Source: Candidatus Heimdallarchaeum aukensis (GTDB lineage: Archaea; Asgardarchaeota; Heimdallarchaeia; Heimdallarchaeales; Heimdallarchaeaceae). From it: a stretch of 64,000 nt of DNA. Of this stretch, positions 10,342 to 33,606 are shown one piece after another; position 1 is the stretch's first letter, and every line of letters begins with the position of its first letter. The stretch lies in contig CP084166.1 in NCBI GenBank assembly GCA_021513695.1, positions 928,001 through 992,000 on the forward strand, in the 5' to 3' direction. The notes under the pieces are model-generated. The model worked only from the letters and a program-made list of their open reading frames with translations, did not search any database and was not told the origin of the DNA. The translations under genes were made by a program, and so were the position numbers.

Positions 10342-13300
10342 ATTTTCACACTACTTAGTTCAGCTTAAACCTCGTACTTGCTTGCAGAAGCACCTAGCAC
10401 GTAGTAATTTTCACACTACTTAGTTCAGCTTAAACCTTTCGATAATGATGGTGTTAGTGGTGAAGTGCAAAATTTTCACACTACTTAGTTCAGCTTAAAC
10501 AATCTATCAAGTGTCTCATTTTTTACGTTTCCTAGATTTTCACACTACTTAGTTCAGCTTAAACAATAACGTTTGAACATTGTTCTCGAATTCTTCATAA
10601 ATTTTCACACTACTTAGTTCAGCTTAAACAGTTGATGAAGGTGTGACAAAGTGTGACACTTCGATATTTTCACACTACTTAGTTCAGCTTAAACATTCTA
10701 CTTTTTTCTCAATCAATTTACAAGTTAGAGCGTCATTTTCACACTACTTAGTTCAGCTTAAACAGAACTAGGATCAGTCTCGGTCCATTCAGAAACTCGA
10801 TTTTCACACTACTTAGTTCAGCTTAAACTCCTAAAATAATAACTGATCCTAAGAATCCTGATAAGATTTTCACACTACTTAGTTCAGCTTAAACCCAGAG
10901 TGAGAACGGGGTTATAGGTCAATAATAAAGAAATTTTCACACTACTTAGTTCAGCTTAAACTTTGTTTTGATTTTTCTTTCTTTCAGGATAGCATCAATT
11001 TTCACACTACTTAGTTCAGCTTAAACAAATGGCTAAAAGAACCACAAGAACTTCAAGAAAATAATTTTCACACTACTTAGTTCAGCTTAAACTTTACATT
11101 TATATAACTTCCCCAGAAGATTATATATAATTTTCACACTACTTAGTTCAGCTTAAACCAGCAATGTTGGCACATCTCCCCACTCTACTTTCTCATTTTC
11201 ACACTACTTAGTTCAGCTTAAACATTACTCTTTTTTCTTTACAAAACATTTATATATTATATTTTCACACTACTTAGTTCAGCTTAAACGTTATATTAAG
11301 TGTTAAATAGTTCTCTTTTCCTTCTTATTTTCACACTACTTAGTTCAGCTTAAACGTAAAAAAATGAGTAATTCAGAAGAACATTTTCACACTACTTAGT
11401 TCAGCTTAAACTGAAAACCTTATAGGCTGGCGTGAATACGCAAACCTAATTTTCACACTACTTAGTTCAGCTTAAACACGTTTCCAAGTAAATCTGTTAC
11501 TATTTCAAATTTATTTTCACACTACTTAGTTCAGCTTAAACTGATTTACGTTACCCTCATGTTTGTTATGTTTATTTATTTTCACACTACTTAGTTCAGC
11601 TTAAACGAATTTACTTTACACAATGATCGTGCTGATACTGTTTTATTTTCACACTACTTAGTTCAGCTTAAACACATTGCTTGATATTGGAATTTTATAT
11701 CTTAATATATTTTCACACTACTTAGTTCAGCTTAAACCTGACTTTTTTGGAGAATTTGGTTTCGCTGATAGTAATTTTCACACTACTTAGTTCAGCTTAA
11801 ACTAGAAAATTGTATTCTTCAAACTATACGTATAGATATTCCATTTTCACACTACTTAGTTCAGCTTAAACCTTAAATTATCTTCAAACCAATCAGAATA
11901 ATAAAGTTCATATTTTCACACTACTTAGTTCAGCTTAAACATAAATATCGCTATTTCTCCTTTCTTAACTGTTCTTAATTTTCACACTACTTAGTTCAGC
12001 TTAAACCATAATCTATCATAAAAAAGTCTCCTATATCATAAGTATTTTCACACTACTTAGTTCAGCTTAAACACTATTTTTCCACCTTCTCTTTCTTCCC
12101 ATTCTCTCTTATTTTCACACTACTTAGTTCAGCTTAAACTTTGTACTTCACTGTGCTTAATATCTCTACTTATACTATTTTCACACTACTTAGTTCAGCT
12201 TAAACTTTATCACCCCTCATATATTTATTATACTTCCTAAAATTTTCACACTACTTAGTTCAGCTTAAACCGTACACCCATTCCTTAGGTGTCCAGTCTA
12301 ATACTTATTTTCACACTACTTAGTTCAGCTTAAACTCACCTATATATATGATGTTCTAACACATAAAAATCATTTTCACACTACTTAGTTCAGCTTAAAC
12401 CTGACTTTTTTGGAGAATTTGGTTTCGCTGATAGTAATTTTCACACTACTTAGTTCAGCTTAAACTAGAAAATTGTATTCTTCAAACTATACGTATAGAT
12501 ATTCCATTTTCACACTACTTAGTTCAGCTTAAACCTTAAATTATCTTCAAACCAATCAGAATAATAAAGTTCATATTTTCACACTACTTAGTTCAGCTTA
12601 AACATAAATATCGCTATTTCTCCTTTCTTAACTGTTCTTAATTTTCACACTACTTAGTTCAGCTTAAACCATAATCTATCATAAAAAAGTCTCCTATATC
12701 ATAAGTATTTTCACACTACTTAGTTCAGCTTAAACACTATTTTTCCACCTTCTCTTTCTTCCCATTCTCTCTTATTTTCACACTACTTAGTTCAGCTTAA
12801 ACTTTGTACTTCACTGTGCTTAATATCTCTACTTATACTATTTTCACACTACTTAGTTCAGCTTAAACTTTATCACCCCTCATATATTTATTATACTTCC
12901 TAAAATTTTCACACTACTTAGTTCAGCTTAAACCGTACACCCATTCCTTAGGTGTCCAGTCTAATACTTATTTTCACACTACTTAGTTCAGCTTAAACTC
13001 ACCTATATATATGATGTTCTAACACATAAAAATCATTTTCACACTACTTAGTTCAGCTTAAACCTCATAACAAATGGATAAAGACTATTGAAATCAAGAA
13101 TTTTCACACTACTTAGTTCAGCTTAAACCAATTATTATCGCAACAGCCATCTCAAGATCACCTTATTTTCACACTACTTAGTTCAGCTTAAACGTTTTTG
13201 AATAACAGTCTGTGAAGAGAGAGAAGCAAATTTTCACACTACTTAGTTCAGCTTAAACGTCTTATTTCGTTAAAATCTTCAACAATAGCTTGTTGATTTT

Positions 13301-16300
13301 CACACTACTTAGTTCAGCTTAAACACTTTAGACGTGAAAAATTGGTTAATGGTTTTAGGTGATTTTCACACTACTTAGTTCAGCTTAAACGTAAAGAGAA
13401 AAGAAGAAAGAAAAAGAACGATAAAAGAATTTTCACACTACTTAGTTCAGCTTAAACGAGATATTGCAACATTTTGCTACAAAAATATCTAAAAAATTTT
13501 CACACTACTTAGTTCAGCTTAAACTTTGAAGTATCTGTGATGTCTTTTGTGACTACTCCTGATTTTCACACTACTTAGTTCAGCTTAAACCTTACAGAGG
13601 GAGAATATGCGGGACAATATATTATTACATTTTCACACTACTTAGTTCAGCTTAAACATAGAAGAAGAGCTCATTACAACTTTCCTTTTCCGTGATTTTC
13701 ACACTACTTAGTTCAGCTTAAACAAGCGTCAGTAGCACCTACAAGCGGGACATTCACAAGATTTTCACACTACTTAGTTCAGCTTAAACTCTATTTTATA
13801 TACTTTCTCTAATTCTAAACTTCTACTATTTTCACACTACTTAGTTCAGCTTAAACAGTAGAAATGAAGGGGGGGTTAGGAGCTAGAAAAAATTTTCACA
13901 CTACTTAGTTCAGCTTAAACCAATTCTGTTAATTTGTTTATTTCTTCCCATCTTTCATTTTCACACTACTTAGTTCAGCTTAAACGATAAATGGTACAAT
14001 CGTTTGAACCCTTTTAGAAGAAATTTTCACACTACTTAGTTCAGCTTAAACAAGGTTATCGCCTTTACATTTAGGGTTCTCACAAGTAATTTTCACACTA
14101 CTTAGTTCAGCTTAAACTATTTATGTAAAAGTCCTCTTCATCTATTATTAAACTATTTTCACACTACTTAGTTCAGCTTAAACACTATAACTTTAAGCAC
14201 TTGTTTTACTATATCGAAAAATTTTCACACTACTTAGTTCAGCTTAAACAGTCCGTTCTCGTTTCTTATTTCTTCGTCATCGGTTCTAATTTTCACACTA
14301 CTTAGTTCAGCTTAAACATGATTTTGTATAGTTTCCTCTCTTTATAAATGAAAATTTTCACACTACTTAGTTCAGCTTAAACTCAGCGTTTTGTAGTTCT
14401 ATTTTTCGTAAGTCGTCATATTTTCACACTACTTAGTTCAGCTTAAACCATTTCTCCACCTCTTTTTCATTTCTACTTGTTCTAATTTTCACACTACTTA
14501 GTTCAGCTTAAACTTGCTCTCTAAATATATTGCATACATTCCTTTTCTGATTTTCACACTACTTAGTTCAGCTTAAACTGAACAAACACTCACAATCTTA
14601 TCTAATCTTTCAAACGTATTTTCACACTACTTAGTTCAGCTTAAACAAACTGAAGTCATGTCAAAGTTAGAAGCCCAACTATATTTTCACACTACTTAGT
14701 TCAGCTTAAACGAGCTTTTACTGAAGCAGAACTAAAAAGAAATACCCCAAATTTTCACACTACTTAGTTCAGCTTAAACCATTGAATTCCTCTTTCTTCC
14801 TCTGCACAATAGTGAATTTTCACACTACTTAGTTCAGCTTAAACACGGTGCTCTGAAATGATGGAGTTTGAACAAAAATATTTTCACACTACTTAGTTCA
14901 GCTTAAACGTACAATTATGTTAAATATAGAAGAATAAAAAGGAATTTTCACACTACTTAGTTCAGCTTAAACGATAAAAATGGTAGAAGAGCATAAGAAG
15001 AATGAGCTTAATTTTCACACTACTTAGTTCAGCTTAAACTCTATCCTCCTTTTTTTTGGTTTGCAGTTTATACAAGAATTTTCACACTACTTAGTTCAGC
15101 TTAAACTTCATAGAACTTGATGTTAGGGTTAGGAAAAACCTCATTTTCACACTACTTAGTTCAGCTTAAACTGTAGCTTTGAAAGTTTATCATAGTTATG
15201 TGAGAATTATTTTCACACTACTTAGTTCAGCTTAAACAGATGAAATTTCCGAATTAGTTACTTTATTTCCGTCTGATTTTCACACTACTTAGTTCAGCTT
15301 AAACATTGGAGCTCTTCCCTTGACAATACAAATATTACAAATTTTCACACTACTTAGTTCAGCTTAAACGAACGATTACAGTATAGAACAGACGAATATT
15401 ATTATATTTTCACACTACTTAGTTCAGCTTAAACATCAGCAACTCTTTGCTGGTTCTCAAGAGCTTTTTGATTTTCACACTACTTAGTTCAGCTTAAACG
15501 TGAAAAGTCTCTTGTGTAGGTATATCGTGCTGCGTATTTTCACACTACTTAGTTCAGCTTAAACAGGTTCTCACTTTGGACAAAAGAAGCAAGTTTAGAC
15601 GAATTTTCACACTACTTAGTTCAGCTTAAACTTTCTCCTGAAAGAAGATCGTATGGTAACGAATACGTATTTTCACACTACTTAGTTCAGCTTAAACTCT
15701 ACCACAATGAAGATCATGAGAAGAAACCCACACATTTTCACACTACTTAGTTCAGCTTAAACATTTTTTTCACCCATAATCATTTCCACCCCTCTTTGAT
15801 TTTCACACTACTTAGTTCAGCTTAAACTCAAGGTCAAAATGGGGAAAAAGGTCGAACTATGGTATTTTCACACTACTTAGTTCAGCTTAAACAACGCTTG
15901 TTTTGGGGTTTCACACCCCAAAATCTTATTTTCACACTACTTAGTTCAGCTTAAACTCTGCTTTATCTTCTTCTTTTTCACAATCTCTATGAATTTTCAC
16001 ACTACTTAGTTCAGCTTAAACTTTGCACCTATTATATTTTAAGAGTAAAGAATATAATTTTCACACTACTTAGTTCAGCTTAAACCAGAGAAAGACGCGG
16101 GTTCAATTTCGTATAAGTAAGTAATTTTCACACTACTTAGTTCAGCTTAAACTATCTTCTTTATCTCTTTTTCTACTAACTCATTCTTATTTTCACACTA
16201 CTTAGTTCAGCTTAAACTAGATAAAGGAAGTTTAGATAAAGCGATACAAGAATTGCTAAATTTTCACACTACTTAGTTCAGCTTAAACAAGCGAGTTCAG

Positions 16301-16420
16301 TATCTTCTTTTTCCTCATAGACCTTAATTTTCACACTACTTAGTTCAGCTTAAACATTTATTCCTGCTATACGCAATAGACTTGAAAACGTATTTTCACA
16401 CTACTTAGTTCAGCTTAAAC
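10342..16420 (-). CRISPR. CRISPR array 1: 93 repeats and 92 spacers, of which 82 are unique. The repeat is ATTTTCACACTACTTAGTTCAGCTTAAAC on the + strand, the reverse complement of the array-2 repeat. Spacers are 27-43 nt, mostly 35-38. It is transcribed on the minus strand from the leader at 16421-16535.
   Basis: Perfectly conserved 29-nt direct repeats with a ~65-bp period, counted by reading through the array. Orientation was inferred from the conserved leader and from identity to the array-2 repeat. Confidence 0.97.
11738..13063. repeat. Tandem segmental duplication inside array 1. A block of 10 spacer+repeat units (11738-12400) is repeated, apparently identically, at 12401-13063 (663 bp per copy).
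   Basis: Spacers ctgacttttttggagaatttggtttcgctgatagta .. tcacctatatatatgatgttctaacacataaaaatc occur twice in the same order. Confidence 0.9.
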
Positions 16421-16535
16421 GAAGTTTATTTTCTTTTCTAGCTATATTTTTCTCTCGTTTTGTCACTCACCTTCCTGGTCGACCTCCAATAAGGTATTAA
16501 CTTTATAAATATTGACCAGATACATAAACGTTTAC
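16421..16535 (-). promoter_or_regulatory. CRISPR leader of array 1 (minus-strand orientation). It is ~95% identical to the array-2 leader and contains a TATA-like TTTATAAAG and a GGAGGTCGACCAGGAAGGTGAGTGACAAAA block.
   Basis: The reverse complement of 16421-16535 aligns almost base-for-base with 28858-28971, including the junction ..AAAATAAACTTC|GTTTAAG. Confidence 0.8.
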
Positions 16536-16569
16536 CTTATAAACAATGACTAGTACCATTAAATTTGCT

Positions 16570-18075
16570 TTATTTTTTTGCTATTTTCTCTGCAATTACA
16601 GGATGTTTTTCGTTTACTGCATACCAGAATTTTGCCTTTCCTTTTAAATTTGGTTTTATTATTATCCATCCCTTTTTTTCCATATCTACTAGGATTCTTG
16701 GTTTATTCATTTTGAATTGATTTATGTTTATTTTTTTATGATCATGGTATTTATTTTCTTTTTGCATCCATTCATTTATTTTCCTGAAGCTCCCTGCAGC
16801 TAATCCACCTATCAAGATTGACCCATCCATACAGAGTTTGTATTCTTTTGGTTTTTCCAGTACTGACATGTATTTATCTATCATAAAGTCTAAAATTATT
16901 TCATGTTCTCCCTCTGGCCTTTCGAACATTTTTTCTTTTGTTCCTTCTTTAATTATTTTATTTTTTAGTTTGTCTAGTTGACTATTTTTTTCAAGAAGCA
17001 ACCTATTTTTTTCATGTGGGTCCCATAAATTTATTTTCTCAATTAATATTTGTTCTAAGTTTTGATACTCTCTTTCAATTACTAATTTTGTACTTATTTT
17101 CTTGAATATTTTTCTCTGGTAATTTTGTGGCAGGTAGTATGATCTTCTTCCTATAGAGTGATATAGAATTGGATTTAGGGTATTAACTATATAGTTTACT
17201 AGAGCTATTTTTTCTTCCATGTTTAGCTCCGAAAAGATATTTTCTTCTATTATTGATACTATTCTTTGTATTAGAGTTTTAATCATGAAAGCTGTTAGAA
17301 TAGCTTTTTTTACTCTCTTTTTGAATAATTCATTTTTCTTTTTGTAATGTACTATAGCATAAGTATCAATTCCGAGGGATAAAACGTCTATTTTTTCCTT
17401 TGAGCTATATATCTTTTCTATGTTTTTTTCTTCTAACTTTTGAAAATGAACACTAGGTAATTCAATTATTGAGATGACATTTGAAGATTCTAAATAAATA
17501 TTACTAAATTCTTTAAAGAATGCTCTAAGCAAACAAAATTTTACCTGTTCATTTTTCTTTTTTTTGCCTTTTTCATTTGTAAATATTTTTATTATTTCCC
17601 TTCGTAAATTTTCTAAACTCTCTTCTTCCAGAATTTTTTCACTTAAAATTACTTTCTTTTCTACTTCAGCTATTAATGATGGATAAATGTTTATCTTTTT
17701 TAATCCATTTACGATTTTAACTACTGTTCTTGGTTCATTCCAATAAACAGTTCTTGTTTCAATTGGAATAAGCGGTCTTAAAGGCACTCTTCTAAAAAAT
17801 AAATATTTTTTAGCGTAATAGTACAGATATGAATCATTAGTCAATTTCAGAAAAAGACTTGAGTAGTATGGAATGAAAATGTCGAACTTTTTTCTACCTT
17901 TTCTTATTACCATTTTTATTCTTTTTTTGAACTCTGTTTCTGATTTAAGGAAAGAGAGTTCTTTTCTAATCTTTTTTGAATAAAGGATTTCTGGAATGGC
18001 ATAAAACTGATGGAAAGAGATTTTTATTGTATTCATTTTATTCTCCCTAATACCATTTTTGAAGAGTAGTATCAT
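16570..18075 (-). CDS. Hypothetical protein (501 aa) with no recognisable motifs. It is co-oriented with the downstream leader of array 1 and overlaps the upstream tandem-Lrp-like gene.
   Basis: A long clean ORF. It has a 29-nt overlap with 18047..19525, which suggests an operon. Its stop is 35 bp from the leader. Confidence 0.6.
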   Translation of the reverse strand: MILLFKNGIRENKMNTIKISFHQFYAIPEILYSKKIRKELSFLKSETEFKKRIKMVIRKGRKKFDIFIPYYSSLFLKLTNDSYLYYYAKKYLFFRRVPLRPLIPIETRTVYWNEPRTVVKIVNGLKKINIYPSLIAEVEKKVILSEKILEEESLENLRREIIKIFTNEKGKKKKNEQVKFCLLRAFFKEFSNIYLESSNVISIIELPSVHFQKLEEKNIEKIYSSKEKIDVLSLGIDTYAIVHYKKKNELFKKRVKKAILTAFMIKTLIQRIVSIIEENIFSELNMEEKIALVNYIVNTLNPILYHSIGRRSYYLPQNYQRKIFKKISTKLVIEREYQNLEQILIEKINLWDPHEKNRLLLEKNSQLDKLKNKIIKEGTKEKMFERPEGEHEIILDFMIDKYMSVLEKPKEYKLCMDGSILIGGLAAGSFRKINEWMQKENKYHDHKKININQFKMNKPRILVDMEKKGWIIIKPNLKGKAKFWYAVNEKHPVIAEKIAKK

Positions 18076-19525
18076 ATCTTGAAGTTGGCAGATTTACTCT
18101 TTTAGTATACATAAAGCTGGTTATAAAAAAATAAGGTTCTTCTTCTTCAAAAATCGAAGAAAACAAATCTATGAAATTAATTACTAATTCATTGGGTATT
18201 CTTACTGTAACAATTAGTCCCTTTTCATCTGTTATTAAATTAGTAAACGGTTCAGAATAAACTTCTGGAAACAGAGATAATCTATCATGAATCTCTTTTT
18301 GATCCACTTTTTTCTTAAATATAATCATCACATCGTTAGTTCCAAAAATTGGTATTATATTTACTCTTTTTATGTATAGTTGTTCATTTGTGAAGTGTTT
18401 CAAATATTTTCTTATTGTGCTCTGTGAAATATTAGTTTCCTTCTCTATTCTACTTACAGTCAAATCTCTATTCTTAATTATATATTCAAGTATCTTAAGG
18501 CCAGGCTTAGTTAATTTTAATTCACTTTCTTTTGTGTCTTCGAATCTAGGTTTCAATTCATTCTTTGTTTTACTCTTATTATGAAGTGCAATTGCAATTT
18601 CGCTTATCGAATAATTCCAATTTTTGTTTTTATAATCATATTTTGAATAATCAAACGTTGTTATCTGTTCTTCTCTATGCAGAACTAAAATTTCATATTT
18701 TGTTATTTCTTTTTTCTTGATTGACAAGTCAAAAAATTCACTTATTCTCCTACATATCTCCTTCAACAAGGGCACTGGGAATGAGTAGTAGAGTAACAAT
18801 GCCTTGCATGATGTATTCAGTGTCATCGATTTTCTTAAGAACATTTTAGGGAAATTTTCTTTTTTATGTATTGAAGAGAGTTCATCAAATCCATAAACAA
18901 TCACAAGAAGCAAGACAAAGTTTGTCTTTTTCAAATTCAAACTTATTCCTTCATAGATTATTCCTTTATCAAAGAGTAATTTTTTTGTTCTTGTTATATT
19001 TCCTGCATCTTTATTCAAAATTTTACTTAATTCTTTGGTTGAAGTAATTTGATATTTGATCATTGCTTGTAGTAATGAAAACTCTGCTTTTGTTAGACTA
19101 GGCTTGATTCTACTCCTTAATGTAAAAAAGAATCTCAGGAAAAGAGACCAATTTTCTAATAGTATTTTATTTTTTTTATATTCTAAAATAGAAAGTAATT
19201 TATTAGCTGTTTCTTCATCTTGAAGAAACTGTTTATATGACGAGAATATTACATATTTCAAATCATTATATTCTTTCTCTGTACTATATTCAGACCAAAA
19301 ATTCAACCATTTTTCTAATTGTTGTCTAGTTATGCTTTTTTTTCCTTTATTTTTCTGAAAATAAAGTATTCTATATATTTTAAAACATATTAAATCCCAA
19401 GCAGGTGTTTTTGGAACTATATTTAGTTCTTCAACTTTTTTTTTAAAAAATTTAAAATGTGATCCTAAGATTTCTCTCCCTTTCTCTAAAATTACTTCTC
19501 TTTCTTTTATTTGAGAATATTTCAT
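18047..19525 (-). CDS. Tandem Lrp/AsnC-like regulator (492 aa): an N-terminal ~130-aa domain plus two wHTH-RAM-like modules. It is a paralog of 34762..36246.
   Basis: Two wHTH segments (LTKAEFSLLQAMIKYQITSTKELSKIL.., LTKPGLKILEYIIKNRDLTVSRIEKETNISQSTIRKYL). A C-terminal LSLFPEVYSEP..GLIVTVRIP block resembles an AsnC RAM domain. It aligns with the 494-aa protein over its full length. Confidence 0.6.
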   Translation of the reverse strand: MKYSQIKEREVILEKGREILGSHFKFFKKKVEELNIVPKTPAWDLICFKIYRILYFQKNKGKKSITRQQLEKWLNFWSEYSTEKEYNDLKYVIFSSYKQFLQDEETANKLLSILEYKKNKILLENWSLFLRFFFTLRSRIKPSLTKAEFSLLQAMIKYQITSTKELSKILNKDAGNITRTKKLLFDKGIIYEGISLNLKKTNFVLLLVIVYGFDELSSIHKKENFPKMFLRKSMTLNTSCKALLLYYSFPVPLLKEICRRISEFFDLSIKKKEITKYEILVLHREEQITTFDYSKYDYKNKNWNYSISEIAIALHNKSKTKNELKPRFEDTKESELKLTKPGLKILEYIIKNRDLTVSRIEKETNISQSTIRKYLKHFTNEQLYIKRVNIIPIFGTNDVMIIFKKKVDQKEIHDRLSLFPEVYSEPFTNLITDEKGLIVTVRIPNELVINFIDLFSSIFEEEEPYFFITSFMYTKRVNLPTSRYDTTLQKWY

Positions 19526-19724
19526 CCAAGTTTAAATTTATTGTCAGTTTAAATTTTTTTTGTAATACTGACCTTGAACTATTGTCCAAAATAGACAAAG
19601 CTTATCCTTTTAGTTTTATTCTATTTCAAGCCTTCTAAGTAGATAGTTTTTAAATTACTTCACAGACATTTTCGATTTTTTGTTGTCCAGAGATGTATTG
19701 TCACAATTAAAAAGAGGTGACAAA

Positions 19725-19799
19725 ATGAAAAAGGATTATTATCTTCCTCCTCCTGAAGATGATGAACCAAATGATCCAGAACCATTTCCTTTTCCTTAA
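19725..19799 (+). CDS. Possible small ORF (24 aa, MKKDYYLPPPEDDEPNDPEPFPFP) with a good RBS (GAGGTGA, 4-nt spacer).
   Basis: An SD-like GGTGA sits 4 nt upstream of the ATG. An inverted repeat overlaps the RBS. The ORF is too short to support strongly. Confidence 0.2.
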   Translation: MKKDYYLPPPEDDEPNDPEPFPFP

Positions 19800-20022
19800 A
19801 AGGGATAAAGAAGGTATTAAAACCTTCACGTTCTTCTACTAACAACCTAAGAACGTCCAATTATACAATTGGACTTCTTTTTTTATTTTTTTCTATCAAA
19901 CTACTTATCATACTAGAATTTTTGTTGGTTTACTTTAATTTAAAAAAAGCTCAAATTCTAATAATTCTTTTTTTAAACTCTTAAAACTCTATTAAAAGTT
20001 TTTATAGTTTGTTGAGATAAAA

Positions 20023-20745
20023 TTGTTGATGAGGATTCTTATTTCTTTTAAGCCTAAATTTGATGTTTCAGAGGATGCCATAGTAAAACATGATATTCAA
20101 GGATTTATTTATAATCTAATCAAGTACAAAGATACTAAAGTTCTTTTAGATCATGATAAACATCATTTCAAATTTTTTTGTTTTAGCGATATTTTTCCTC
20201 AAGGTGATTTTAAAAAAGGAGAGACAAAAAATCTGTTAATTAGTTCTCCTACAAAAGAGCTAATAAATTTAATTGATGATAATCTTCCTCTTGAGAAATC
20301 CTATAGATTAGCTGGATTAACCATCGAAGTTATATCCAAAAAAACTTTTAACTTTCCCACAAAAAACAACTTTATTTCTGGAAGTCCTATAGTTTTATAC
20401 AAAGATAATACAAAGAATGAATATTTTAGCTTTAAGAAACACAAAAGTCTTAATTTCTTTCTCAATAGATTACAAGAAAATGCTGTGAAAAAGTATCAAA
20501 TTTACTATAACGATCCTGAATTTCAATTGTCTGGAAAGATTTTTGATACAATTGAATTTAGAAAGGAGGTTGCAGTTCACAACAGGAAACAAGGAAATGA
20601 ATTTATTCACATTGGCACTCTTTGGAAAAAATTAGAAAAAGAATACATAAAGAAAGAAGAAAGAAGGTTTTATCATTTTATCATGGAAAGTGGTCTTGGC
20701 GAAAAAAATAGTATGGGTTTTGGTTTTTTAAATCCTATTCAATAA
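20023..20745 (+). CDS. cas6: Cas6 endoribonuclease (type I-B).
   Basis: It is ~240 aa with the C-terminal glycine-rich loop GLGEKNSMGFGF, and it is the first gene of the cas operon. The likely start is the ATG at 20026. Confidence 0.85.
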   Translation: MLMRILISFKPKFDVSEDAIVKHDIQGFIYNLIKYKDTKVLLDHDKHHFKFFCFSDIFPQGDFKKGETKNLLISSPTKELINLIDDNLPLEKSYRLAGLTIEVISKKTFNFPTKNNFISGSPIVLYKDNTKNEYFSFKKHKSLNFFLNRLQENAVKKYQIYYNDPEFQLSGKIFDTIEFRKEVAVHNRKQGNEFIHIGTLWKKLEKEYIKKEERRFYHFIMESGLGEKNSMGFGFLNPIQ

Positions 20746-20850
20746 ATTGTATTTTTTTGTTTAAATTTTACAATTAATTTTTGAAAAAACAACCTTTAAA
20801 ATATTTTTTTCTTTCTGTTTTACCAATAAAACTTAATTATTGGTGTTCCA

Positions 20851-22863
20851 TTGATACAAGCAGTTAAACAATTAGGAAAAAAAATACGAGAGATTTATCC
20901 TGAAAAATATGCAGATTTTGTCGATGTCTTTATTGCAGATGTAAAAACAGATTTATTTTTGATAGAATTAGAGAAAAAAGAAAACGATTTTCAATATAAT
21001 AAAATTGTTTGGATGGAACCAAAACCTGAGATAATTCCTAAATTACTTTATAAAGACTTTGGGAGAAATATCAAAATTAGACCTGCGCCTGTAGCTAAAG
21101 TAGGTTATTTCCAGACCAAATCAAAAGATGGTAAAATTTCAGAAAAAGAGCTCGAGAATCACAAGAAGAAAATAAAAAGCGAACTAGACGCTTCCATAAT
21201 TAAATGGTTTTCTCAAGAAATTGATAGAAGAAAAGAAGGTAGTGAAAAAAGAATTTTCTTGGAAAATATAAAAAAAGGAATACTCAATTCATTAGATAAT
21301 ATAATTACAGATATTAAAGAACAGATGGATTTTTCAGGTCAAAATAAGAAAAAAAATGAAAAGTGTATAATAACACTACAATTTTTGGAAGGTGGTAAAG
21401 AATATTACCTTCGTGACTTTGATATTTTTTCTAAAGCTTTTTTAGATAAAAACTTGGAACGTTACGCAAATAAATGGGGAATAACTTCTAAAGGAGAAGA
21501 TGCTGTTTGTTCATTATGTCATGAGAAAAAAGAAGAAGTCTTTGGTTGTGCCTCAGACATTTTTAGCTGGTACACTCTTGATAAAAGAGGATTTGCACCA
21601 TTCTTTGATCAGACTTTAGGATGGAAACTATTTCCTGTCTGTAAAGAATGTATTATTGATCTAGAGATAGGCAAAAAATTTGTTTTAAACAATCTACGTC
21701 TTAAGTTTAATGATTTTACTAACTTTTTCTTAATTCCAAAGCTTCTAAATCCTAAAATTATCGATAAGGGTATTTTGAGAAGATTTGAGCTTTTCAAGAG
21801 TATTTCAGTTGAAAATAATGAACTATTGGAAAAATATAGGAAAAAAGAAGAGATACTTAAGAGAGCTACAAAAAGCACAATTGAAATGATCGGAGAACAA
21901 GAAAAAGATAACAATTTTACGCAGAATATGATTTTCCTGAATTTAATTTTCTTTGATGATGATGGAAAATCTATAAAGATTCTACGTAGTATTGAAGATG
22001 TTCTTCCTTCCAGGTTTGTTCAGATAACTGATGAGCTATATAAAATAAATAAGGATGAAACTTTGGACAGCTATAAAATTTATTTGCAATTAGTTTTAAA
22101 CATCTTATATCTGGAAAAAGAAAGTAAACGCGGTTCTACAATTGATAAAAAGTATTTATCTACAATCGATTCTCTTCTTAAAGATGTACCTTTAGATTAT
22201 GATGTTCTTATAAAGGATATCGCTTCAAGTTGTCAAGAGATAGTAAAGGAAAGTTATCTTTCTGATAACAATCTAAAAAAAATAGCTAAAAAAATTACAA
22301 ATATTGACAAAGGTAATAATGACGTAGAATTTGGCAACTCTTATGAGTTAATAATTAATGCTTATTTAAAATATTTAGTTTTATTAAAAAGATTAAATCT
22401 AATCCAAAAATGGAGGGTATCAAAAATGATTGATAAAACAGGACTTGAAGAAGAAATATCAGATAATAAGAGTCGACTAAGCATCTTAAATTCAATATTT
22501 AATGCTTATTCTGACTTTTTTGATCAACCCATTATTCGTGCTGTCTTTGTATTAGGCATTTTGACTAAGCTATTGATGAATATTCAGTATCGCAATCTCA
22601 ATGCTACGCCTTTTTTCAACAGGTTAAATGGGTTAAAATTGAATAAAAGAATAATAATCAAACTTGTTTCCGAAGTAAAAGGAAAACTAAGTGAATACTC
22701 TATAGCTTATGTTGATTTAGAAGAAGAGATGGCTAAATACTTCTTAGAAGCTGGTCACAATTGGCTGGTTTCTGATGACGAACTTAGTTTCTTCTTCGCT
22801 TTGGGAATGAATAACGCGAGTAAATTTAAATCAGAAACAAAAGAAGGTGAAGAAAATGAGTGA
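20851..22863 (+). CDS. cas8b: Cas8b (Csh1) large subunit of type I-B Cascade.
   Basis: 670 aa, located between cas6 and cas7. It carries a Cys-rich zinc-finger-like segment (CSLCHEKKEE..CKEC). Confidence 0.8.
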   Translation: MIQAVKQLGKKIREIYPEKYADFVDVFIADVKTDLFLIELEKKENDFQYNKIVWMEPKPEIIPKLLYKDFGRNIKIRPAPVAKVGYFQTKSKDGKISEKELENHKKKIKSELDASIIKWFSQEIDRRKEGSEKRIFLENIKKGILNSLDNIITDIKEQMDFSGQNKKKNEKCIITLQFLEGGKEYYLRDFDIFSKAFLDKNLERYANKWGITSKGEDAVCSLCHEKKEEVFGCASDIFSWYTLDKRGFAPFFDQTLGWKLFPVCKECIIDLEIGKKFVLNNLRLKFNDFTNFFLIPKLLNPKIIDKGILRRFELFKSISVENNELLEKYRKKEEILKRATKSTIEMIGEQEKDNNFTQNMIFLNLIFFDDDGKSIKILRSIEDVLPSRFVQITDELYKINKDETLDSYKIYLQLVLNILYLEKESKRGSTIDKKYLSTIDSLLKDVPLDYDVLIKDIASSCQEIVKESYLSDNNLKKIAKKITNIDKGNNDVEFGNSYELIINAYLKYLVLLKRLNLIQKWRVSKMIDKTGLEEEISDNKSRLSILNSIFNAYSDFFDQPIIRAVFVLGILTKLLMNIQYRNLNATPFFNRLNGLKLNKRIIIKLVSEVKGKLSEYSIAYVDLEEEMAKYFLEAGHNWLVSDDELSFFFALGMNNASKFKSETKEGEENE

Positions 22864-23785
22864 AATAATAAAAAATAGGTCTGAAATAGTTTTTTTGTAT
22901 GATGTTAGAGACGGTAATCCAAATGGTGACCCTGCTGATGGGAACAAGCCTAGGATTGATGAAACCAGTGGTATCAACATAGTAACTGATGTTCGACTAA
23001 AGAGAACAATAAGAGACTATATAAACAAGGTTAAAGGCCATGAAATTTTTGTTAAAAAGATAGAAGACTTAGAAGGGATAATCCAAACTTCTAAACAACG
23101 AGCACAAGATTTTCAGAATGATCCAGATAAGATTCTTTCTGAATGCGTGGATGTCAGGATGTTTGGGGGAACTATACCAATAAAAATTTCTGATAAGAAA
23201 GATGGTAGCATTACTTTTACTGGTCCCGTTCAATTCTCTATGGGGAGATCTCTTCACAGAGTCGAGTTAAAACATGTTAAAGGAACAGGAGCTTTTGCTT
23301 CTTCAGAAGGAAAGAAACAACAGACTTTTCGAGAAGAGTGGATACTACCTTATTCACTAATAAGCTTTTATGGTGTAATAAATGAGAATGGTGCAGAAGA
23401 TACACAGTTAACCGAAGAGGATGTTAAGCTTCTTGTAGAAAGTATCTGGAATGGGACTAATGATTTGTTAACAAGAAGTAAGATGGTTCATAGATCTAGA
23501 GTTCTTTTACAAATTATTTACCAAGAGAAAAACTTCCATGTCGGAGAGCTTGACAAAAAGATTAAGATGAAGGCTAAAGTTGAAGATGAAAAAATTAGAG
23601 GTACGGATGACTACACTCTTGAATTTGATAATTTTGTAGAAGCGATCAAAAATAACAAAGAAAAAGTAAAAATTATTCGTTACAAAGTAGATGACAGTAT
23701 TAATCTTGAATTTAATGGTGACAAAAAGACTATAGAAGAGATTCTAAAACTTACAGAATGTGAATTGGAAGAGCTGAAATTTTAA
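22847..23785 (+). CDS. cas7: Cas7 (Csh2) backbone subunit.
   Basis: The N-terminal signature LYDVRDGNPNGDPADGNKPR is typical of I-B/I-C Cas7. The true start is probably the ATG at 22859, preceded by GGTGA. Confidence 0.9.
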   Translation: MKKMSEIIKNRSEIVFLYDVRDGNPNGDPADGNKPRIDETSGINIVTDVRLKRTIRDYINKVKGHEIFVKKIEDLEGIIQTSKQRAQDFQNDPDKILSECVDVRMFGGTIPIKISDKKDGSITFTGPVQFSMGRSLHRVELKHVKGTGAFASSEGKKQQTFREEWILPYSLISFYGVINENGAEDTQLTEEDVKLLVESIWNGTNDLLTRSKMVHRSRVLLQIIYQEKNFHVGELDKKIKMKAKVEDEKIRGTDDYTLEFDNFVEAIKNNKEKVKIIRYKVDDSINLEFNGDKKTIEEILKLTECELEELKF

Positions 23786-23791
23786 TAATAG

Positions 23792-24553
23792 GTGAGACTA
23801 ATGCTAAAACAGGAAGCTGAAGTAAGAGAAGTTTTAGTTTTCGATATTTGGGGTGATTTTGCTCATTTTAAGAAAAACTATGCTACAACTTCAGCTCTTA
23901 CATACAATTTTCCTCCTCGAAATACTATTGCAGGAATAATTGGAGCAATTTTAGGTTTAAAGAGGGCAGATTTTCCTGAAAAATTGTCTCCTGAAAAGAG
24001 TTACATTGGTGTTTCAATACTCTCTCCAATAATGAAAAAAACTATTACAATGAATCTTATTCACACTAAACCTTCTGAATCACTTATATTCAAAAATAAT
24101 TTTGGTTATTTCAAAAAGCACACACAGATTCCTTTTCAATTTTTATCTAATATCTCATTTAGGGTGTATTTTTCAACTGACGATGAGGAAATGTTTTCAC
24201 AACTATATACATATCTTAAAAACCATAAGTCTCATTATACAGTTTCGTTAGGTTTGAGCAATCTACTTTGTAACTTTAAGTTAATAGGAAAAAAAACAAT
24301 AAGAAAAAAAGAAGTAGCTAACAAAGAAGTAGAGGTTTTAACAGTAATTCCGATGAACAAAGTCAAAGAAGTAAATGTGTTTAAAAATCCTAAAATGAAT
24401 ATCGAGAATTTACCCAGATTTATCGATAGTTCAAGAACAGTTCATGAATACCAGGAAGTTCTATCAAGCATGGATCCAGAAAAACCTCTTTTTGTAGTCC
24501 CTAGAGATACCTTATGGGAGATTGAAAATGACAAATTCATCAGTTTCCTCTGA
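23792..24553 (+). CDS. cas5: Cas5 (Cas5h/Cas5b).
   Basis: ~250 aa. The N-terminal LVFDIWGDFAHFKK..PPRNTIAGIIGAILG is typical of Cas5. It sits between cas7 and cas3. Confidence 0.85.
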   Translation: MRLMLKQEAEVREVLVFDIWGDFAHFKKNYATTSALTYNFPPRNTIAGIIGAILGLKRADFPEKLSPEKSYIGVSILSPIMKKTITMNLIHTKPSESLIFKNNFGYFKKHTQIPFQFLSNISFRVYFSTDDEEMFSQLYTYLKNHKSHYTVSLGLSNLLCNFKLIGKKTIRKKEVANKEVEVLTVIPMNKVKEVNVFKNPKMNIENLPRFIDSSRTVHEYQEVLSSMDPEKPLFVVPRDTLWEIENDKFISFL

Positions 24554-26990
24554 AAATCAGATAAACATTTTTTCTCACCCTAATAAAAATATTTTAGAAC
24601 ATTTAAGTGAGACAGAAAGAGAAATTCTAAATATCCTTGAAAAACTACAGCCCAATTTTTCAATCAAAAAAAACATTATTATCGAAATCGCTAGAATTTT
24701 AGCTTTAACACATGATATTGGAAAATGCACAATCTTTTTTCAAGAATATCTTCATTCAAACGAAGAAAATAACTTCAAAAAATTGGGAGAATATCAAAGT
24801 TCAAAACTTCACCACCATGGACTAATCTCTGCAGTTTTTACCTATTATACACTAAAGAAACTTTTAAATTCAAATAATGAGCAGTTCTATGACCTGAATA
24901 GTGGATATAAAGACCTATTACCTCATATAGGCTTTTTAACAACAAAAAAACATCATGGTAATTTAGGAAATTTTTATGATGAGATTATTATAAACAGAAC
25001 AAGTGAAGAAAAGATTAGACAGCAACTAGAAAATTTCCATCCCCAATTCGAAAATGTTGTCGAATTCATAAGAAATAAAATTAATATAACAATTTCATTT
25101 AATGAATTTTCAGAATCCTTTGGAGATTTAATTGATGAATTAGCTTTCAGTGATGAACTATTATTGAACTATTATGAAAATAGTAGAGATTGTGAACTTT
25201 ATCTATTTACTTTATTTTTACATTCAATCTTAACAGATGCAGATAAAACTTCTGCTATTGGTGTCTCTAAGCCTATTCTTCCATTTATTTCTTCTAACAA
25301 AATTATCAAAAACAGGAAAAAAATAATCCAGAAAAAAGGAAAAAAGACATATTTAGATAACTTAAGAGAGAATATTTACAAAGAAGTAATTGCAAAGATA
25401 GAAAAAACACCTTTAGATAACAAAATATTTACATTAACAGCTCCTACAGGTTCAGGAAAAACTCTCACAGTTTTTGAAGCAGCATTTAGATTGAAAGATA
25501 AAATTTTAAGGAGAACTAATATAGAAATGAAAATTATTTATTGCCTTCCATTTCTCAGCATCATTGATCAAAATGCTCACATTATTAACCAACTGCTAGA
25601 TCCTGACTCAGTTAAGTTTCTTCCTTCAACTCAACTACTAATTCATCATTACTTGGCAGAAGTTCAATACAGCTCTTATGAAGAAGATTATACCTTTGAT
25701 GAAAGTAGATTCCTAATTGAGGATTGGCATTCTTCAGTTATTATTACAACCTTTATTCAGCTTTTTCATAGTATTTTTACCAATAGAAATAGCAAGATAA
25801 GGAAACATCACAATATACAAAATTCTATCATAATACTTGATGAAGTTCAAAACATTCCTCATAAGTATTGGTTATTGATCAGGGAAGTTTTTCAAAGATT
25901 ATCAGAGATCGAGAATGTTTATATCATTTTTACAACAGCCACACAGCCTAAAATTTTTAGTTCAGAAGAGAAAGTTGTTGAATTACTTGAAAATAAGGAA
26001 AAATACTTTGAACAGTTAAGTAGAATTACTTTAGAACCAAAAATTGATAACAATATCACACTCAACGAGTTTATTTTAGAAATTAATGAGAAACTGCAAA
26101 AGAACAGTGACAAGGATATTCTAATTGTTGCGAATACAATCCGAGAAGCTCAAGAGATTTTTGACAGTATTAATTTTAAAAAAGATCATGATAAGTTATT
26201 TTTCCTTTCAAGTCAAATAATCCCTAGAAAGAGGAAAGAAAGAATTGAAGAAATAAAGAGAAAATTAGAAAAAGAAAAAGATAAAAGAGAGAGTAATGAA
26301 AAACGAATTATTTTAGTAACTACCCAATTAATTGAAGCAGGAGTAGATATCGATTTTGATATTGTAATAAGAGATTTAGGACCAATAGATTCTATAAATC
26401 AAGTAGCAGGAAGATGTAACAGAAACGGAGAAGAAGAAAAGGGAAAAACAATTGTTTATTCAGTCATTGACCAAAAAACAAAAAGATTATTTGCTTCATA
26501 CATTTATGACGGATTTATTTTAAGTAAAACGAAGGATGTTCTAAAAAACAAAAGAGTGATAGAAGAACAAGAATTCCTCAAAATCATTGACGATTATTAT
26601 TTAAGCATCGAAAAGACAGGGGACACAATAACCTCCACTAATATACTAGACTCTATCTTTAATTTAGAGTTTGATGAAATAGGTAAATTTAGCCTGATAG
26701 AAGAAAGAGCTGATCAAGTTCCTGTTTTTATTGAGATAGATAAAAAGGCAAAGGAAATTTGGGCAGAATATTTGGAAATATGGAATATTAAAGATTGGAA
26801 GAAAAGAAATGAGAAATTTATAAAAATCAAAAATGATCTCTATAGTAACTTAATTAACGTAGACAAGAAAAAAATCAAAACAATTGAGCAAATAAAGGGT
26901 TATTATTATATCGATTTTCAAAATGCTAGGAACTACTACGACAATGAAAAAGGTTTCATTGGGAAAGAAAAAGATGTTATTTTATTATAA
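24522..26990 (+). CDS. cas3: Cas3 with an N-terminal HD nuclease domain and a DExH helicase.
   Basis: HD motif LTHDIGK. Helicase motifs TAPTGSGKT, ILDEVQ, TATQP and VTTQLIEAGVDIDFD. 822 aa. Confidence 0.9.
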   Translation: MKMTNSSVSSENQINIFSHPNKNILEHLSETEREILNILEKLQPNFSIKKNIIIEIARILALTHDIGKCTIFFQEYLHSNEENNFKKLGEYQSSKLHHHGLISAVFTYYTLKKLLNSNNEQFYDLNSGYKDLLPHIGFLTTKKHHGNLGNFYDEIIINRTSEEKIRQQLENFHPQFENVVEFIRNKINITISFNEFSESFGDLIDELAFSDELLLNYYENSRDCELYLFTLFLHSILTDADKTSAIGVSKPILPFISSNKIIKNRKKIIQKKGKKTYLDNLRENIYKEVIAKIEKTPLDNKIFTLTAPTGSGKTLTVFEAAFRLKDKILRRTNIEMKIIYCLPFLSIIDQNAHIINQLLDPDSVKFLPSTQLLIHHYLAEVQYSSYEEDYTFDESRFLIEDWHSSVIITTFIQLFHSIFTNRNSKIRKHHNIQNSIIILDEVQNIPHKYWLLIREVFQRLSEIENVYIIFTTATQPKIFSSEEKVVELLENKEKYFEQLSRITLEPKIDNNITLNEFILEINEKLQKNSDKDILIVANTIREAQEIFDSINFKKDHDKLFFLSSQIIPRKRKERIEEIKRKLEKEKDKRESNEKRIILVTTQLIEAGVDIDFDIVIRDLGPIDSINQVAGRCNRNGEEEKGKTIVYSVIDQKTKRLFASYIYDGFILSKTKDVLKNKRVIEEQEFLKIIDDYYLSIEKTGDTITSTNILDSIFNLEFDEIGKFSLIEERADQVPVFIEIDKKAKEIWAEYLEIWNIKDWKKRNEKFIKIKNDLYSNLINVDKKKIKTIEQIKGYYYIDFQNARNYYDNEKGFIGKEKDVILL

Positions 26991-27002
26991 CGAAATGATG
27001 GA

Positions 27003-27031
27003 GTTCAAGCTAAACTAAGTAGTATGAAAAT
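27003..27031 (+). repeat. Solitary degenerate CRISPR repeat (26/29 identical: GTTCAAGCTAAACTAAGTAGTATGAAAAT) in the cas3-cas4 intergenic spacer. It is in the same orientation as the cas genes and array 2.
   Basis: Direct comparison with the array repeat GTTTAAGCTGAACTAAGTAGTGTGAAAAT shows 3 mismatches. No second repeat lies nearby. Confidence 0.8.
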
Positions 27032-27073
27032 TAGAGGTAGAAGTAATGGTATTAAATTCTTGGTGAAATTGTA

Positions 27074-33583: not shown

Positions 33584-33606
33584 ATAGATTGCCGATTAAA
33601 TTTTCT

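What the first reader, a model, noticed from the sequence alone, without database searches (positions are those of the whole stretch)
16570..19525. Uncharacterised two-gene operon (tandem-Lrp-like regulator + 501-aa unknown) reading into the leader of CRISPR array 1, with a paralogous regulator beyond array 2
The cas operon is canonical, but both arrays are bracketed by extra genes. On the left, 18047..19525 (492 aa) and 16570..18075 (501 aa) overlap and are co-oriented with the array-1 leader, ending 35 bp from it. On the right, past array 2, there is a 266-aa unknown gene (33607..34407) whose stop abuts the last repeat. Next to it is a clear full-length paralog of the regulator (34762..36246, 494 aa). 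Each regulator has an N-terminal domain followed by two wHTH+RAM-like (Lrp/AsnC-type) modules. Neither the 501-aa nor the 266-aa protein shows a recognisable catalytic motif. The mirrored placement of the paralogs next to each array suggests a locus-specific role. Candidate roles are leader/array-specific transcription control or adaptation control, or a new CRISPR-associated accessory module.
Basis: partly seen in the sequence, partly recalled or inferred. Interest (0 to 1): 0.72.

Follow-up and report, generated by a model that had tools for sequence, protein, structure and literature searches.

The report
Defence-linked regulator cassette in Heimdallarchaeia
The two unknown genes beside this CRISPR locus belong to an undescribed four-part cassette (two DNA-binding proteins, a tiny proline-rich peptide gene and a folded RNA) that recurs next to CRISPR-Cas and other defence genes in Heimdall-group Asgard archaea and most likely controls their expression.

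Summary
The ORFs, the paralogy and the layout are real. The 492/494-aa proteins are an N-terminal helical domain plus two Lrp/AsnC-like (wHTH+RAM) modules. The "501-aa" protein probably starts at M14 (488 aa). It defines a rare family (25 representatives among 1.84 billion). All named members come from Heimdallarchaeaceae/Heimdallarchaeota MAGs. It matches nothing in Pfam, NCBIfam, PADLOC or PDB sequences. A confident AF2 model (pLDDT 86) resembles known folds only in its C-terminal winged helix.

In 10 of 13 informative loci a member sits beside cas genes (I-B, I-D, Cst-type I, III-A). Usually it is translationally coupled to a 492-like partner. So "CRISPR-associated module" is supported. "Leader/array-specific" is not: a relative has the array inverted, and three loci lack cas.

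Two parts were missed. One is a divergent micro-ORF (window 19725-19799, MKKDYYLPPPEDDEPNDPEPFPFP) with a conserved C-terminus P-[DN]-D-P-[DE]-P-Φ-P. The other is a covarying three-helix RNA immediately 3' of it (19799-19862).

The 266-aa gene is a decaying Cas3 HD-domain relic. Together with the 494-aa paralog it belongs to a conserved flank. In a co-occurring strain that flank borders a type I-D locus instead.

Best reading: a lineage-specific sensor/regulator cassette for defence operons (confidence about 0.45).

The parts
16570..18036 (-). 488-aa 'member' protein (the listed ORF runs to 18075; the probable start is M14 at 18036). It has a novel N-terminal alpha/beta domain (about 1-230), a helical middle (about 236-427) and a C-terminal winged helix (about 430-488).
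18047..19525 (-). 492-aa 'partner' protein: an N-terminal helical domain (about 1-135) followed by two Lrp/AsnC-like modules (wHTH at about 139-191 and about 340-383, each followed by a RAM-like region).
   Evidence: Pfam HTH_24 matches at 343-381 (E=1.7e-6), and HVO_A0114/MarR match at 139-191. The family profile A3 matches full-length Lrp/AsnC FL11 (2CYY/1RI7, E=3.4e-4) over 336-472, and LrpA/PH0061 over 134-270. The low-confidence AF2 model shows beta-alpha-beta-beta-alpha-beta after wHTH2. Across loci the gene lies 0-10 nt from, or overlaps, the member gene.
19725..19799 (+). Micro-ORF of 24 codons (MKKDYYLPPPEDDEPNDPEPFPFP) with the RBS GAGGTGA at 19714-20. It is divergent from the pair and co-directional with cas6.
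   Evidence: Homologous micro-ORFs occur in L003, L005, L007, L009, L013, L014, L016, L017, L063 and L071. They share the C-terminus P-[DN]-D-P-[DE]-P-[FWYV]-P-(P)-(Q)-stop, synonymous variation in Pro/Asp codons, and a conserved GGAGGTGA RBS. A DNA-pattern scan starting from the micro-ORF recovered three AT-rich metagenome loci, and all three carry the partner and member genes.
19799..19862 (+). Structured RNA element directly 3' of the micro-ORF. P2 is GAAGGU/ACCUUC (19810-15/19822-27). P3 is ACGUUCUU/AAGAACGU (19828-35/19849-56). P1 is a weak closing helix. A further hairpin (19855-74) and an oligo-T run (about 19875-95) follow.
   Evidence: Per-locus folds have z-scores of -2.1 to -4.3. 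Covariance model R2 finds the element in 12 of 14 distinct loci, and it is the only hit in the 64-kb window (E=0.02). In the alignment 92% of cells are paired against 75.9% in shuffles (0/500). Eleven of 18 pairs show compensatory changes, and the slid controls score much lower. There is no Rfam match.
19526..20022 (.). Divergent control region between the pair and cas6. It contains the palindrome TTGTCAC-N12-GTGACAA (19698-19723), which overlaps the micro-ORF RBS.
   Evidence: It contains no CRISPR-repeat-like element: the best local score is 20, against a 99.9th percentile of 24.
16421..16569 (-). Leader of array 1. It is about 100 bp nearly identical to the array 2 leader (28858-28971) and carries TTTATAAA-type boxes.
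10342..16420 (-). CRISPR array 1: 93 exact 29-nt repeats.
20023..28857 (+). Type I-B cas operon (cas6, cas8b, cas7, cas5, cas3, cas4, cas1, cas2).
   Evidence: NCBIfam hits.
28972..33585 (+). CRISPR array 2: 71 repeats, the last one degenerate.
33607..34407 (-). 266-aa relic of a Cas3 HD (Cas3'') domain with its catalytic motifs lost.
   Evidence: It is 36% identical (E=6e-36) to residues 12-265 of the Cas3 in L013. L013 has the motifs AHDFGK and NHHN; the window protein has SHVFGM and NSYKK at those positions. The ortholog in L005 is split into two ORFs. This region is 89% identical to L005, against 98% for the neighbouring genes.
34762..36246 (+). 494-aa solitary paralog of the partner family. 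It has no member gene, micro-ORF or RNA element beside it, and it is part of the conserved flank.
   Evidence: It is 98% identical to L005 12664-14894, which borders a type I-D locus.

Best explanation
The operon is half of a four-part cassette specific to Heimdallarchaeaceae. The parts are (i) a tandem Lrp/AsnC-like DNA-binding protein, (ii) a translationally coupled 488-aa protein with a novel sensor-like body and a C-terminal winged helix, (iii) a divergently transcribed micro-ORF for a 14-24-aa acidic, proline-rich peptide, and (iv) a three-helix structured RNA at the 3' end of that short transcript.

I infer that the two proteins act together as a signal-responsive transcription regulator. 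They would bind the shared divergent control region, about 0.3-0.65 kb long. From there they would set expression of their own operon, of the micro-ORF/RNA transcript and of the adjacent defence operon (here cas6-cas2). The RAM modules and the novel domain of the 488-aa protein would receive the signal.

Shown here: the domain content, the family, the tight gene coupling, the recurrent position at the 5' end of cas effector operons, peptide-level conservation, and RNA covariation.

Inferred: DNA binding at this region, heteromer formation, regulation of cas, and the nature of the signal.
For: Both proteins carry winged-helix domains.

The partner and member genes are 0-10 nt apart or overlap in seven distinct loci.

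The cassette lies divergent from cas6 in type I-B loci (window, L003) and from cas10d in type I-D loci (L005, L014, L017). In other loci it lies directly upstream of, and co-directional with, cas8b-cas7-cas5-cas3 or cas7-cas8 (L009, L010, L011, L013, L016). These are the positions typical of dedicated regulators.

Several paralogous cassettes occur in one MAG: four members carry ACTSP3 locus tags.

The cassette also occurs beside a PtuA/MADS3-like ATPase (L078) and beside ordinary metabolic genes (L008). That fits a portable regulator better than a Cas complex subunit.

The invariant residues of the member family are R, R, R, Y, Y, W, E, N and L, with no invariant D, H, K, S or C. This argues for a binding protein rather than an enzyme.

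From my own knowledge, Lrp is known to regulate a cas operon in Salmonella Typhi.
Against: No binding site shared across loci could be tied to the proteins.

The conserved GAGGAG-N-CTCCTC palindrome could be the operator, but the closing helix P1 and the covariation favour an RNA structure.

In L009, L013 and L007 the micro-ORF/RNA transcript points away from any cas operon. So a simple leader-attenuator for cas cannot be general.

Three loci have no cas genes.

No expression data are available. The AF2 model of the partner is poor (pLDDT 42).
Confidence: 0.45

Rival explanations
1. A protein-repressed RNA or peptide toxin module that guards defence loci, working like CreTA. The strongly translated micro-ORF RNA would be toxic, for example by stalling ribosomes or titrating aIF5A on its PPP, DPDP and PP-stop motifs. 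The two winged-helix proteins would keep its promoter shut. Loss or inhibition of the locus would release the toxin.
For: The anatomy matches the published features of CreT: a strong SD, an efficient start codon, a mini-ORF and a stable stem-loop just downstream. CreT also lies next to type I-B cas genes (PMC8501985). Here there is a GGAGGTGA RBS, an ATG, 14-24 codons and hairpins 8-12 nt after the stop. The transcript is always divergent from the member gene, as expected for a toxin/repressor pair.
Against: There is no creA-like degenerate repeat in the intergenic region. The codons vary synonymously, so no particular rare tRNA is targeted. L010 and L011 keep the RNA element but have no micro-ORF. 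L007 keeps the micro-ORF but has no RNA element. Two large sensor-type proteins are an unusual antitoxin.
Confidence: 0.15
2. The peptide or the RNA is the ligand of the 488-aa protein. In the peptide version this is an intracellular receptor-peptide circuit, analogous to RRNPP/arbitrium but without secretion. In the RNA version it is a ribonucleoprotein. The circuit would report translation status to the defence promoter.
For: The peptide's C-terminus and the member family co-occur in 11 distinct loci. The invariant Arg, Tyr and Trp residues in the member are the kind of residues that bind acidic poly-proline peptides or RNA. The peptide is conserved at the amino-acid level.
Against: No TPR or peptide-binding domain was detected. 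Members exist without the micro-ORF (L008, L010, L011).
Confidence: 0.12
3. These are ordinary lineage-specific transcription factors with no CRISPR-specific role, and they merely accumulate in variable defence islands.
For: L008 has the pair among aminotransferase and DegV genes, with no cas genes and no array within 10 kb. The window site is a hypervariable hot spot where type I-B, type I-D and III-A+I-B cassettes replace each other.
Against: This holds across four system types and at 24-35% protein identity.
Confidence: 0.15
4. A mechanistic CRISPR accessory. It would be either a leader-binding, DNA-bending factor for spacer integration (an IHF analogue), or a recombination function that moves cas cassettes.
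For: The pair ends next to leader 1. Lrp-type proteins bend DNA (my own knowledge). cas cassettes are swapped at one chromosomal site between strains.
Against: Leader adjacency is not conserved. Most loci link the module to effector genes and show no cas1/cas2 nearby. No catalytic-type residues are invariant. No terminal inverted repeats were noticed at the flank/cassette junction (about 33627), but no repeat search was run there.
Confidence: 0.06

Closest known systems
Lrp/AsnC (FFRP) regulators, e.g. Pyrococcus FL11/PH1519 (PDB 2CYY, 1RI7)
   Same: The partner has a wHTH followed by a RAM-type beta-alpha-beta-beta-alpha-beta module. The family profile aligns over a whole FL11 chain.
   Different: Two such modules are fused in one 490-aa chain behind an extra 135-aa helical domain. 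Similarity to the known family is weak (E about 1e-4). The gene is always coupled to a second large protein.
Csa3a/Csa3b (CARF-wHTH) cas regulators of Sulfolobales
   Same: They are CRISPR-associated transcription factors that combine a sensor domain with a winged helix, and they are encoded beside cas modules.
   Different: No CARF domain was detected (TIGR01884 E=0.4, over the HTH only). The winged helix is C-terminal to a fold with no PDB match. The association is mainly with type I effector operons.
CreTA (CRISPR-regulated toxin-antitoxin RNA pair; PMC8501985, PMC9458426)
   Same: It is a small, strongly translated mini-ORF RNA with a downstream stem-loop, located inside or next to type I-B cas genes.
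   Different: There is no creA or degenerate repeat. The ORF is longer and its peptide is conserved. Its neighbours are two DNA-binding proteins rather than a crRNA-like antitoxin.
BrxR/CapW-type (wHTH-WYL) regulators of bacterial defence islands (my own knowledge)
   Same: It is a portable regulator family found next to many different defence systems, usually divergent from or at the head of the operon.
   Different: No WYL domain was found. The lineage is archaeal. There are two proteins plus a peptide gene and an RNA.
Cas3'' HD nuclease domain (for the 266-aa ORF)
   Same: It is clearly homologous to the N-terminal HD region of a Heimdallarchaeal Cas3 (E=6e-36).
   Different: The HD and HH motifs are replaced. 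The helicase part is absent. The ortholog is frameshifted. It is therefore a relic, not an enzyme.

Membership tests
Lrp/AsnC (FFRP) | N-terminal winged HTH of the AsnC/HTH_24 type | tested here: met
   PF13412 matches at 343-381 (E=1.7e-6). A second HTH lies at 139-191. Four of 8 family members hit HTH_24.
Lrp/AsnC (FFRP) | C-terminal RAM (beta-alpha-beta-beta-alpha-beta) effector domain contiguous with the HTH | tested here: inconclusive
   The profile aligns to FL11 through its RAM domain (336-472, E=3.4e-4). The AF2 secondary structure fits, but pLDDT is only 42. No Pfam AsnC_trans_reg hit was found.
Lrp/AsnC (FFRP) | Single-module protein of about 150 aa that forms dimers or octamers | tested here: not met
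   The chain is 492 aa with two tandem modules and an extra N-terminal domain.
Csa3 / CARF regulators | CARF (Rossmann-like) sensor domain | tested here: not met
CreTA | creA: one or two degenerate CRISPR repeats flanking a pseudo-spacer next to creT | tested here: not met
   The best repeat-like score in 19500-20050 is 20, which is within background (99.9th percentile 24).
CreTA | creT: SD + start codon + mini-ORF + stable downstream stem-loop | tested here: met
   Toxicity and tRNA sequestration cannot be tested here.
Cas3'' HD nuclease (266-aa ORF) | Sequence homology to a Cas3 HD domain | tested here: met
   36% identity, E=6e-36, to L013 Cas3 residues 12-265.
Cas3'' HD nuclease (266-aa ORF) | Catalytic H...HD...H metal-binding motifs | tested here: not met
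   The motifs are SHVFGM instead of AHDFGK and NSYKK instead of NHHNIGK. There is no Pfam or NCBIfam HD hit.
RRNPP / arbitrium-type peptide receptors | HTH + TPR receptor with an adjacent gene for a secreted pro-peptide | tested here: not met
   An adjacent small peptide gene is present. However, no TPR was detected, and the 14-24-aa peptides have no signal sequence.
Known defence or Cas families (PADLOC, NCBIfam, Pfam) | Any profile match of the 488-aa family | tested here: not met
   None of the 18 members has a meaningful hit in any library. The PDB sequence profile search found nothing.

The most novel reading that the evidence does not exclude
The cassette is a new kind of immune sentinel. 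A constitutively made short transcript encodes an aIF5A-dependent, stall-prone peptide (PPP / DPDP / PP-stop) and carries a three-way-junction RNA. The 488-aa winged-helix protein and its tandem-Lrp partner read this transcript or its peptide. Disturbance of host translation, for example by a virus, would then switch on CRISPR-Cas or other defence operons, or unleash a toxic RNA. That would be a protein-, peptide- and RNA-based analogue of CreTA in the closest archaeal relatives of eukaryotes.
Probability: 0.22. Interest if true: 0.88.

Novelty: new variant of a known kind. Interest (0 to 1): 0.74.

Why it matters
How cas genes are regulated in Asgard archaea is, to my knowledge, essentially unknown. 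Here a single portable cassette is attached to type I-B, type I-D, Cst-type I and III-A modules and to non-CRISPR defence genes. That makes the question experimentally approachable.

The cassette brings three new objects. The first is a protein family whose fold, apart from the winged helix, has no PDB or BFVD match. The second is a conserved proline-rich micro-peptide. The third is a covarying structured RNA with no Rfam family.

If the peptide or RNA turns out to be the signal or a toxin, this would be a new logic for controlling or safeguarding prokaryotic immunity. Even if it is only a regulator, it gives a practical marker for finding defence islands in Heimdallarchaeia.

The analysis also explains the 266-aa 'unknown' as a cas3 relic. 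It further documents replacement of whole CRISPR-Cas cassettes at one chromosomal site between co-occurring strains.

Tried and rejected
- Word-indexed protein searches with the 501-aa protein, the 492-aa protein and their alignment found only a near-identical metagenome contig. The exhaustive HMMER search was needed.
- Genome and metagenome scans with the regulator alignment found nothing. The diverse member alignment was too divergent for pattern scans.
- A cas6-anchored genome scan gave only a Methanobacteriaceae I-B locus without the cassette.
- The AF2 model of the 492-aa protein was poor. AFDB fold libraries were unavailable.
- The 501-aa and 266-aa proteins are not homologous.
- Profile-profile comparison of the member family with the partner family and with Cas6 found nothing. 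The idea that the member replaces Cas6 where cas6 is missing from the operon is therefore unsupported.
- A creA-like repeat in the intergenic region was rejected. The pseudo-spacer after the solitary repeat at 27003 has no target in the window.
- The MAFFT/RNAalifold alignment recovered only helix P2. A structure-aware Infernal alignment was needed.
- The micro-ORF DNA pattern scan was swamped by GC-rich chance hits: 77 of 80 loci.
- There are no Rfam, tRNA or rRNA hits.
Full report
**Layout**

The window has about 30% GC. It carries a type I-B operon (cas6-cas8b-cas7-cas5-cas3-cas4-cas1-cas2, 20023-28857) between two inverted arrays that share one 29-nt repeat. Array 1 runs from 10342 to 16420 with 93 repeats and is read on the - strand. 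Array 2 runs from 28972 to 33585 with 71 repeats.

The two leaders are almost identical over about 100 bp, and each contains its own TTTATAAA-like box. Array 1 therefore does not need read-through from the upstream operon.

The surrounding genes are chromosomal: CobN/ChlID chelatase, FecCD and CbiMQO transporters, and HdrA-like proteins.

**The regulators**

The 492-aa and 494-aa proteins are 31% identical over their full length (E=4e-67). Pfam finds winged HTHs at about 139-191 and 343-381.

A profile of eight diverse family members (A3) aligns with whole Lrp/AsnC chains. FL11/PH1519 (2CYY, 1RI7) matches over 336-472 at E=3.4e-4. LrpA and PH0061 match over 134-270. The AF2 model itself is poor (pLDDT 42).

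**The '501-aa' protein**

The word-indexed search found only a 97%-identical copy on a 3.8-kb JGI contig, L001. That contig has the same gene order and CRISPR repeats downstream.

Exhaustive HMMER over 1.84 billion representatives found 25 relatives (24-35% identity, about 485 aa). All align from M14, so the true start is probably at 18036. This gives 488 aa and a 10-nt gap after the 492-aa gene. All named members come from Candidatus Heimdallarchaeaceae or Heimdallarchaeota MAGs. The window is therefore almost certainly Heimdallarchaeial.

The family has no hit in Pfam, NCBIfam, PADLOC or PDB sequences.

The invariant residues are R87, L121, E192, R241, Y292, Y306, R308, W423 and N475. No D, H, K, S or C is invariant. 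This points to a binding protein rather than an enzyme.

**Neighbourhood census**

Neighbours were annotated.

Divergent from a cas operon:
- window/L001 and L003/4: cas6 of type I-B
- L005/6, L014/15 and L017: cas10d of type I-D

Directly upstream of and co-directional with type I effector genes:
- L009, L011/12 and L013: cas8b-cas7-(cas5-cas3). In L009 and L013 this sits beside a type III cas10/csm module and a TM1812-type csx1-like gene.
- L010 and L016: a Cst2/DevR-type cas7 plus a CXXC cas8.

Without cas genes:
- L008: metabolic genes, and no array within 10 kb
- L007: 10 kb of upstream sequence only
- L063/L078, found later: a 911-aa unknown protein and a PtuA/MADS3-like ATPase

In total, 10 of 13 informative loci are adjacent to cas genes.

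A 492-like partner immediately precedes the member in the window, L003, L005, L008, L014, L016 and L063/78, and also in L071, where it was judged from stop-to-stop ORFs only. The gap is 0-10 nt or the genes overlap. In L017 the partner lies convergent with the member. In L013 it lies beyond the type III module.

**Points against a leader-specific role**

In L003 the array after the pair is in the opposite orientation. The junction there resembles the window's array 1 trailer end. The type I-D loci and the co-directional loci tie the module to effector operons, not to leaders or adaptation genes.

**The right flank**

The 266-aa protein is 36% identical (E=6e-36) to the N-terminal HD region of the L013 Cas3. 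It has lost the HD and HH motifs.

From 33627 onward the window matches contig L005. The match is 89% over the 266-aa gene, which is split into two ORFs in L005. It is 98% over the 494-aa and 288-aa genes. In L005 this flank borders a type I-D locus with its own pair. L005 comes from the same sample as L001.

A third relative, L013, shares only the 288-aa gene and carries III-A plus I-B modules. The site is therefore a cassette-exchange hot spot. The 266-aa gene is a decaying cas3 remnant. The 494-aa gene is a solitary paralog with no member gene, micro-ORF or RNA element beside it.

**New parts: the micro-ORF**

The 497-bp region between the pair and cas6 contains a 24-codon ORF (19725-19799, +), MKKDYYLPPPEDDEPNDPEPFPFP, behind a GAGGTGA ribosome-binding site. 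L003 has MKNVGYNPPPDDDPNDPEPFPVP at the same place.

Homologous micro-ORFs of 14-24 codons occur in L005, L007, L009, L013, L014, L016, L017, L063 and L071. They are always divergent from the pair or member. All share the C-terminus P-[DN]-D-P-[DE]-P-[FWYV]-P-(P)-(Q)-stop, a GGAGGTGA RBS, and freely varying synonymous Pro and Asp codons. This indicates selection on the peptide.

I also scanned metagenomes with a pattern built from the micro-ORF. This returned 80 loci. The only three AT-rich ones all carry the partner and member genes. That is an independent confirmation of the linkage.

**New parts: the structured RNA**

A structured element begins eight to twelve nucleotides after the stop codon. 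It has a conserved hairpin P2 (GAGGAG, an A/U-rich loop, CUCCUC). It also has a hairpin P3 of variable sequence, and usually a closing helix P1 (z-scores -2.1 to -4.3). Oligo-T runs follow it.

A covariance model trained on eight loci also finds the element in L011, L013, L005 and the window. In the window it lies at 19799-19862 and is the only hit in 64 kb.

On the 11-sequence alignment, 92% of cells pair against 76% in shuffles (0/500). Eleven of 18 pairs show double-sided changes. The slid-partner controls score far lower. One caveat is that Infernal fitted this alignment to the structure.

L010 and L011 have the RNA element but no micro-ORF. L007 has the micro-ORF but no RNA element. L008 has neither. 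There is no Rfam family, and no CRISPR-repeat-like (creA-like) element lies nearby.

**Interpretation**

The best-supported reading is a portable sensor/regulator cassette for defence operons, with confidence about 0.45. The evidence for it:
- two translationally coupled winged-helix proteins
- positions at operon heads
- several copies within one MAG, at least two of them beside different cas modules (I-B and I-D)
- occasional non-CRISPR contexts

The role of the micro-ORF and its RNA is unresolved. The transcript is anatomically similar to CreT toxins, which have a strong SD, a start codon, a mini-ORF and a downstream stem-loop (PMC8501985). The peptide's PPP, DPDP and PP-stop motifs are prone to ribosome stalling (my own knowledge). 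The member's invariant Arg, Tyr and Trp residues would suit binding an acidic poly-proline peptide or RNA (inference).

I therefore keep three rivals: a toxin-guard model, a ligand/RNP model and a 'generic transcription factor' model. The leader-binding or adaptation idea is the least supported.

**Novelty**

CRISPR-linked regulators are a known kind. This cassette, however, consists of families and an RNA that are absent from the libraries searched. I found no description of it in the three literature searches that I ran. I rate it a new variant of a known kind, with a substantial chance of something more unusual.

Noticed in passing
window 27003-27031 (+): A solitary degenerate CRISPR repeat (GTTCAAGCTAAACTAAGTAGTATGAAAAT, 3 mismatches) lies in the 83-nt cas3-cas4 spacer. 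It is by far the best repeat-like match outside the arrays (score 46, against a 99.9th percentile of 24). It could be a Cas6 processing site that splits the interference and adaptation mRNAs, or a cr-like regulatory RNA. The sequence after it has no target in the window.
   Followed up: partly
window 33627-37340 vs L005 11624-14894 and L013 20381-21272: Co-occurring strains carry different CRISPR-Cas cassettes next to the same flank genes. The window/L001 strain has type I-B plus arrays, L005 has type I-D, and L013 has III-A plus I-B. This is a cassette-exchange hot spot whose right boundary lies at the 3' end of the cas3 relic.
   Followed up: partly
window 11738-12371 and 12401-13034: Array 1 contains a tandem duplication of a block of 10 spacers (663-bp period). 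Array 2 has one adjacent duplicated spacer (32145-32179 and 32209-32243). The two arrays share no spacers.
   Followed up: yes
window 34592-34629: A palindrome AAAGTTATAA...TTATAACTTT lies upstream of the solitary 494-aa paralog. Its loop contains TTCACACTA, which is 9 nt of the CRISPR repeat's 3' end. It may be a chance match or a trace of an older array.
   Followed up: no
L013 15356-17971 (Cas3, 871 aa) and L009/L013 csx1-like genes: The Heimdallarchaeal I-B-like modules in L009, L011 and L013 start with the member gene instead of cas6. They split cas8b into about 520-aa and about 138-aa proteins. They sit back-to-back with type III-A modules and a TM1812-type CARF/HEPN-like gene.
   Followed up: partly
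L002 (Methanobacteriaceae MAG CAYNSJ010000028.1): This is the closest I-B locus in the species-representative genome collection (Cas6 43% identical). It has the same architecture of two inverted arrays flanking the cas operon, but no regulator cassette.
   Followed up: partly
window 43335-44033 (+) and 61755-63119 (-): There is an rve-type integrase-core ORF (232 aa), possibly an IS remnant, and a 454-aa AAA/nSTAND-like ATPase further downstream. Neither was examined.
   Followed up: no
L063 3304-6036 / L078, and L007 3613-7875: Large unknown proteins (911 aa and 1420 aa, with no NCBIfam/Pfam or PDB-sequence hits at the thresholds used) lie next to the cassette in non-CRISPR loci. They sit beside PtuA/MADS3-like or ABC-type ATPases and may belong to undescribed defence systems.
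   Followed up: partly
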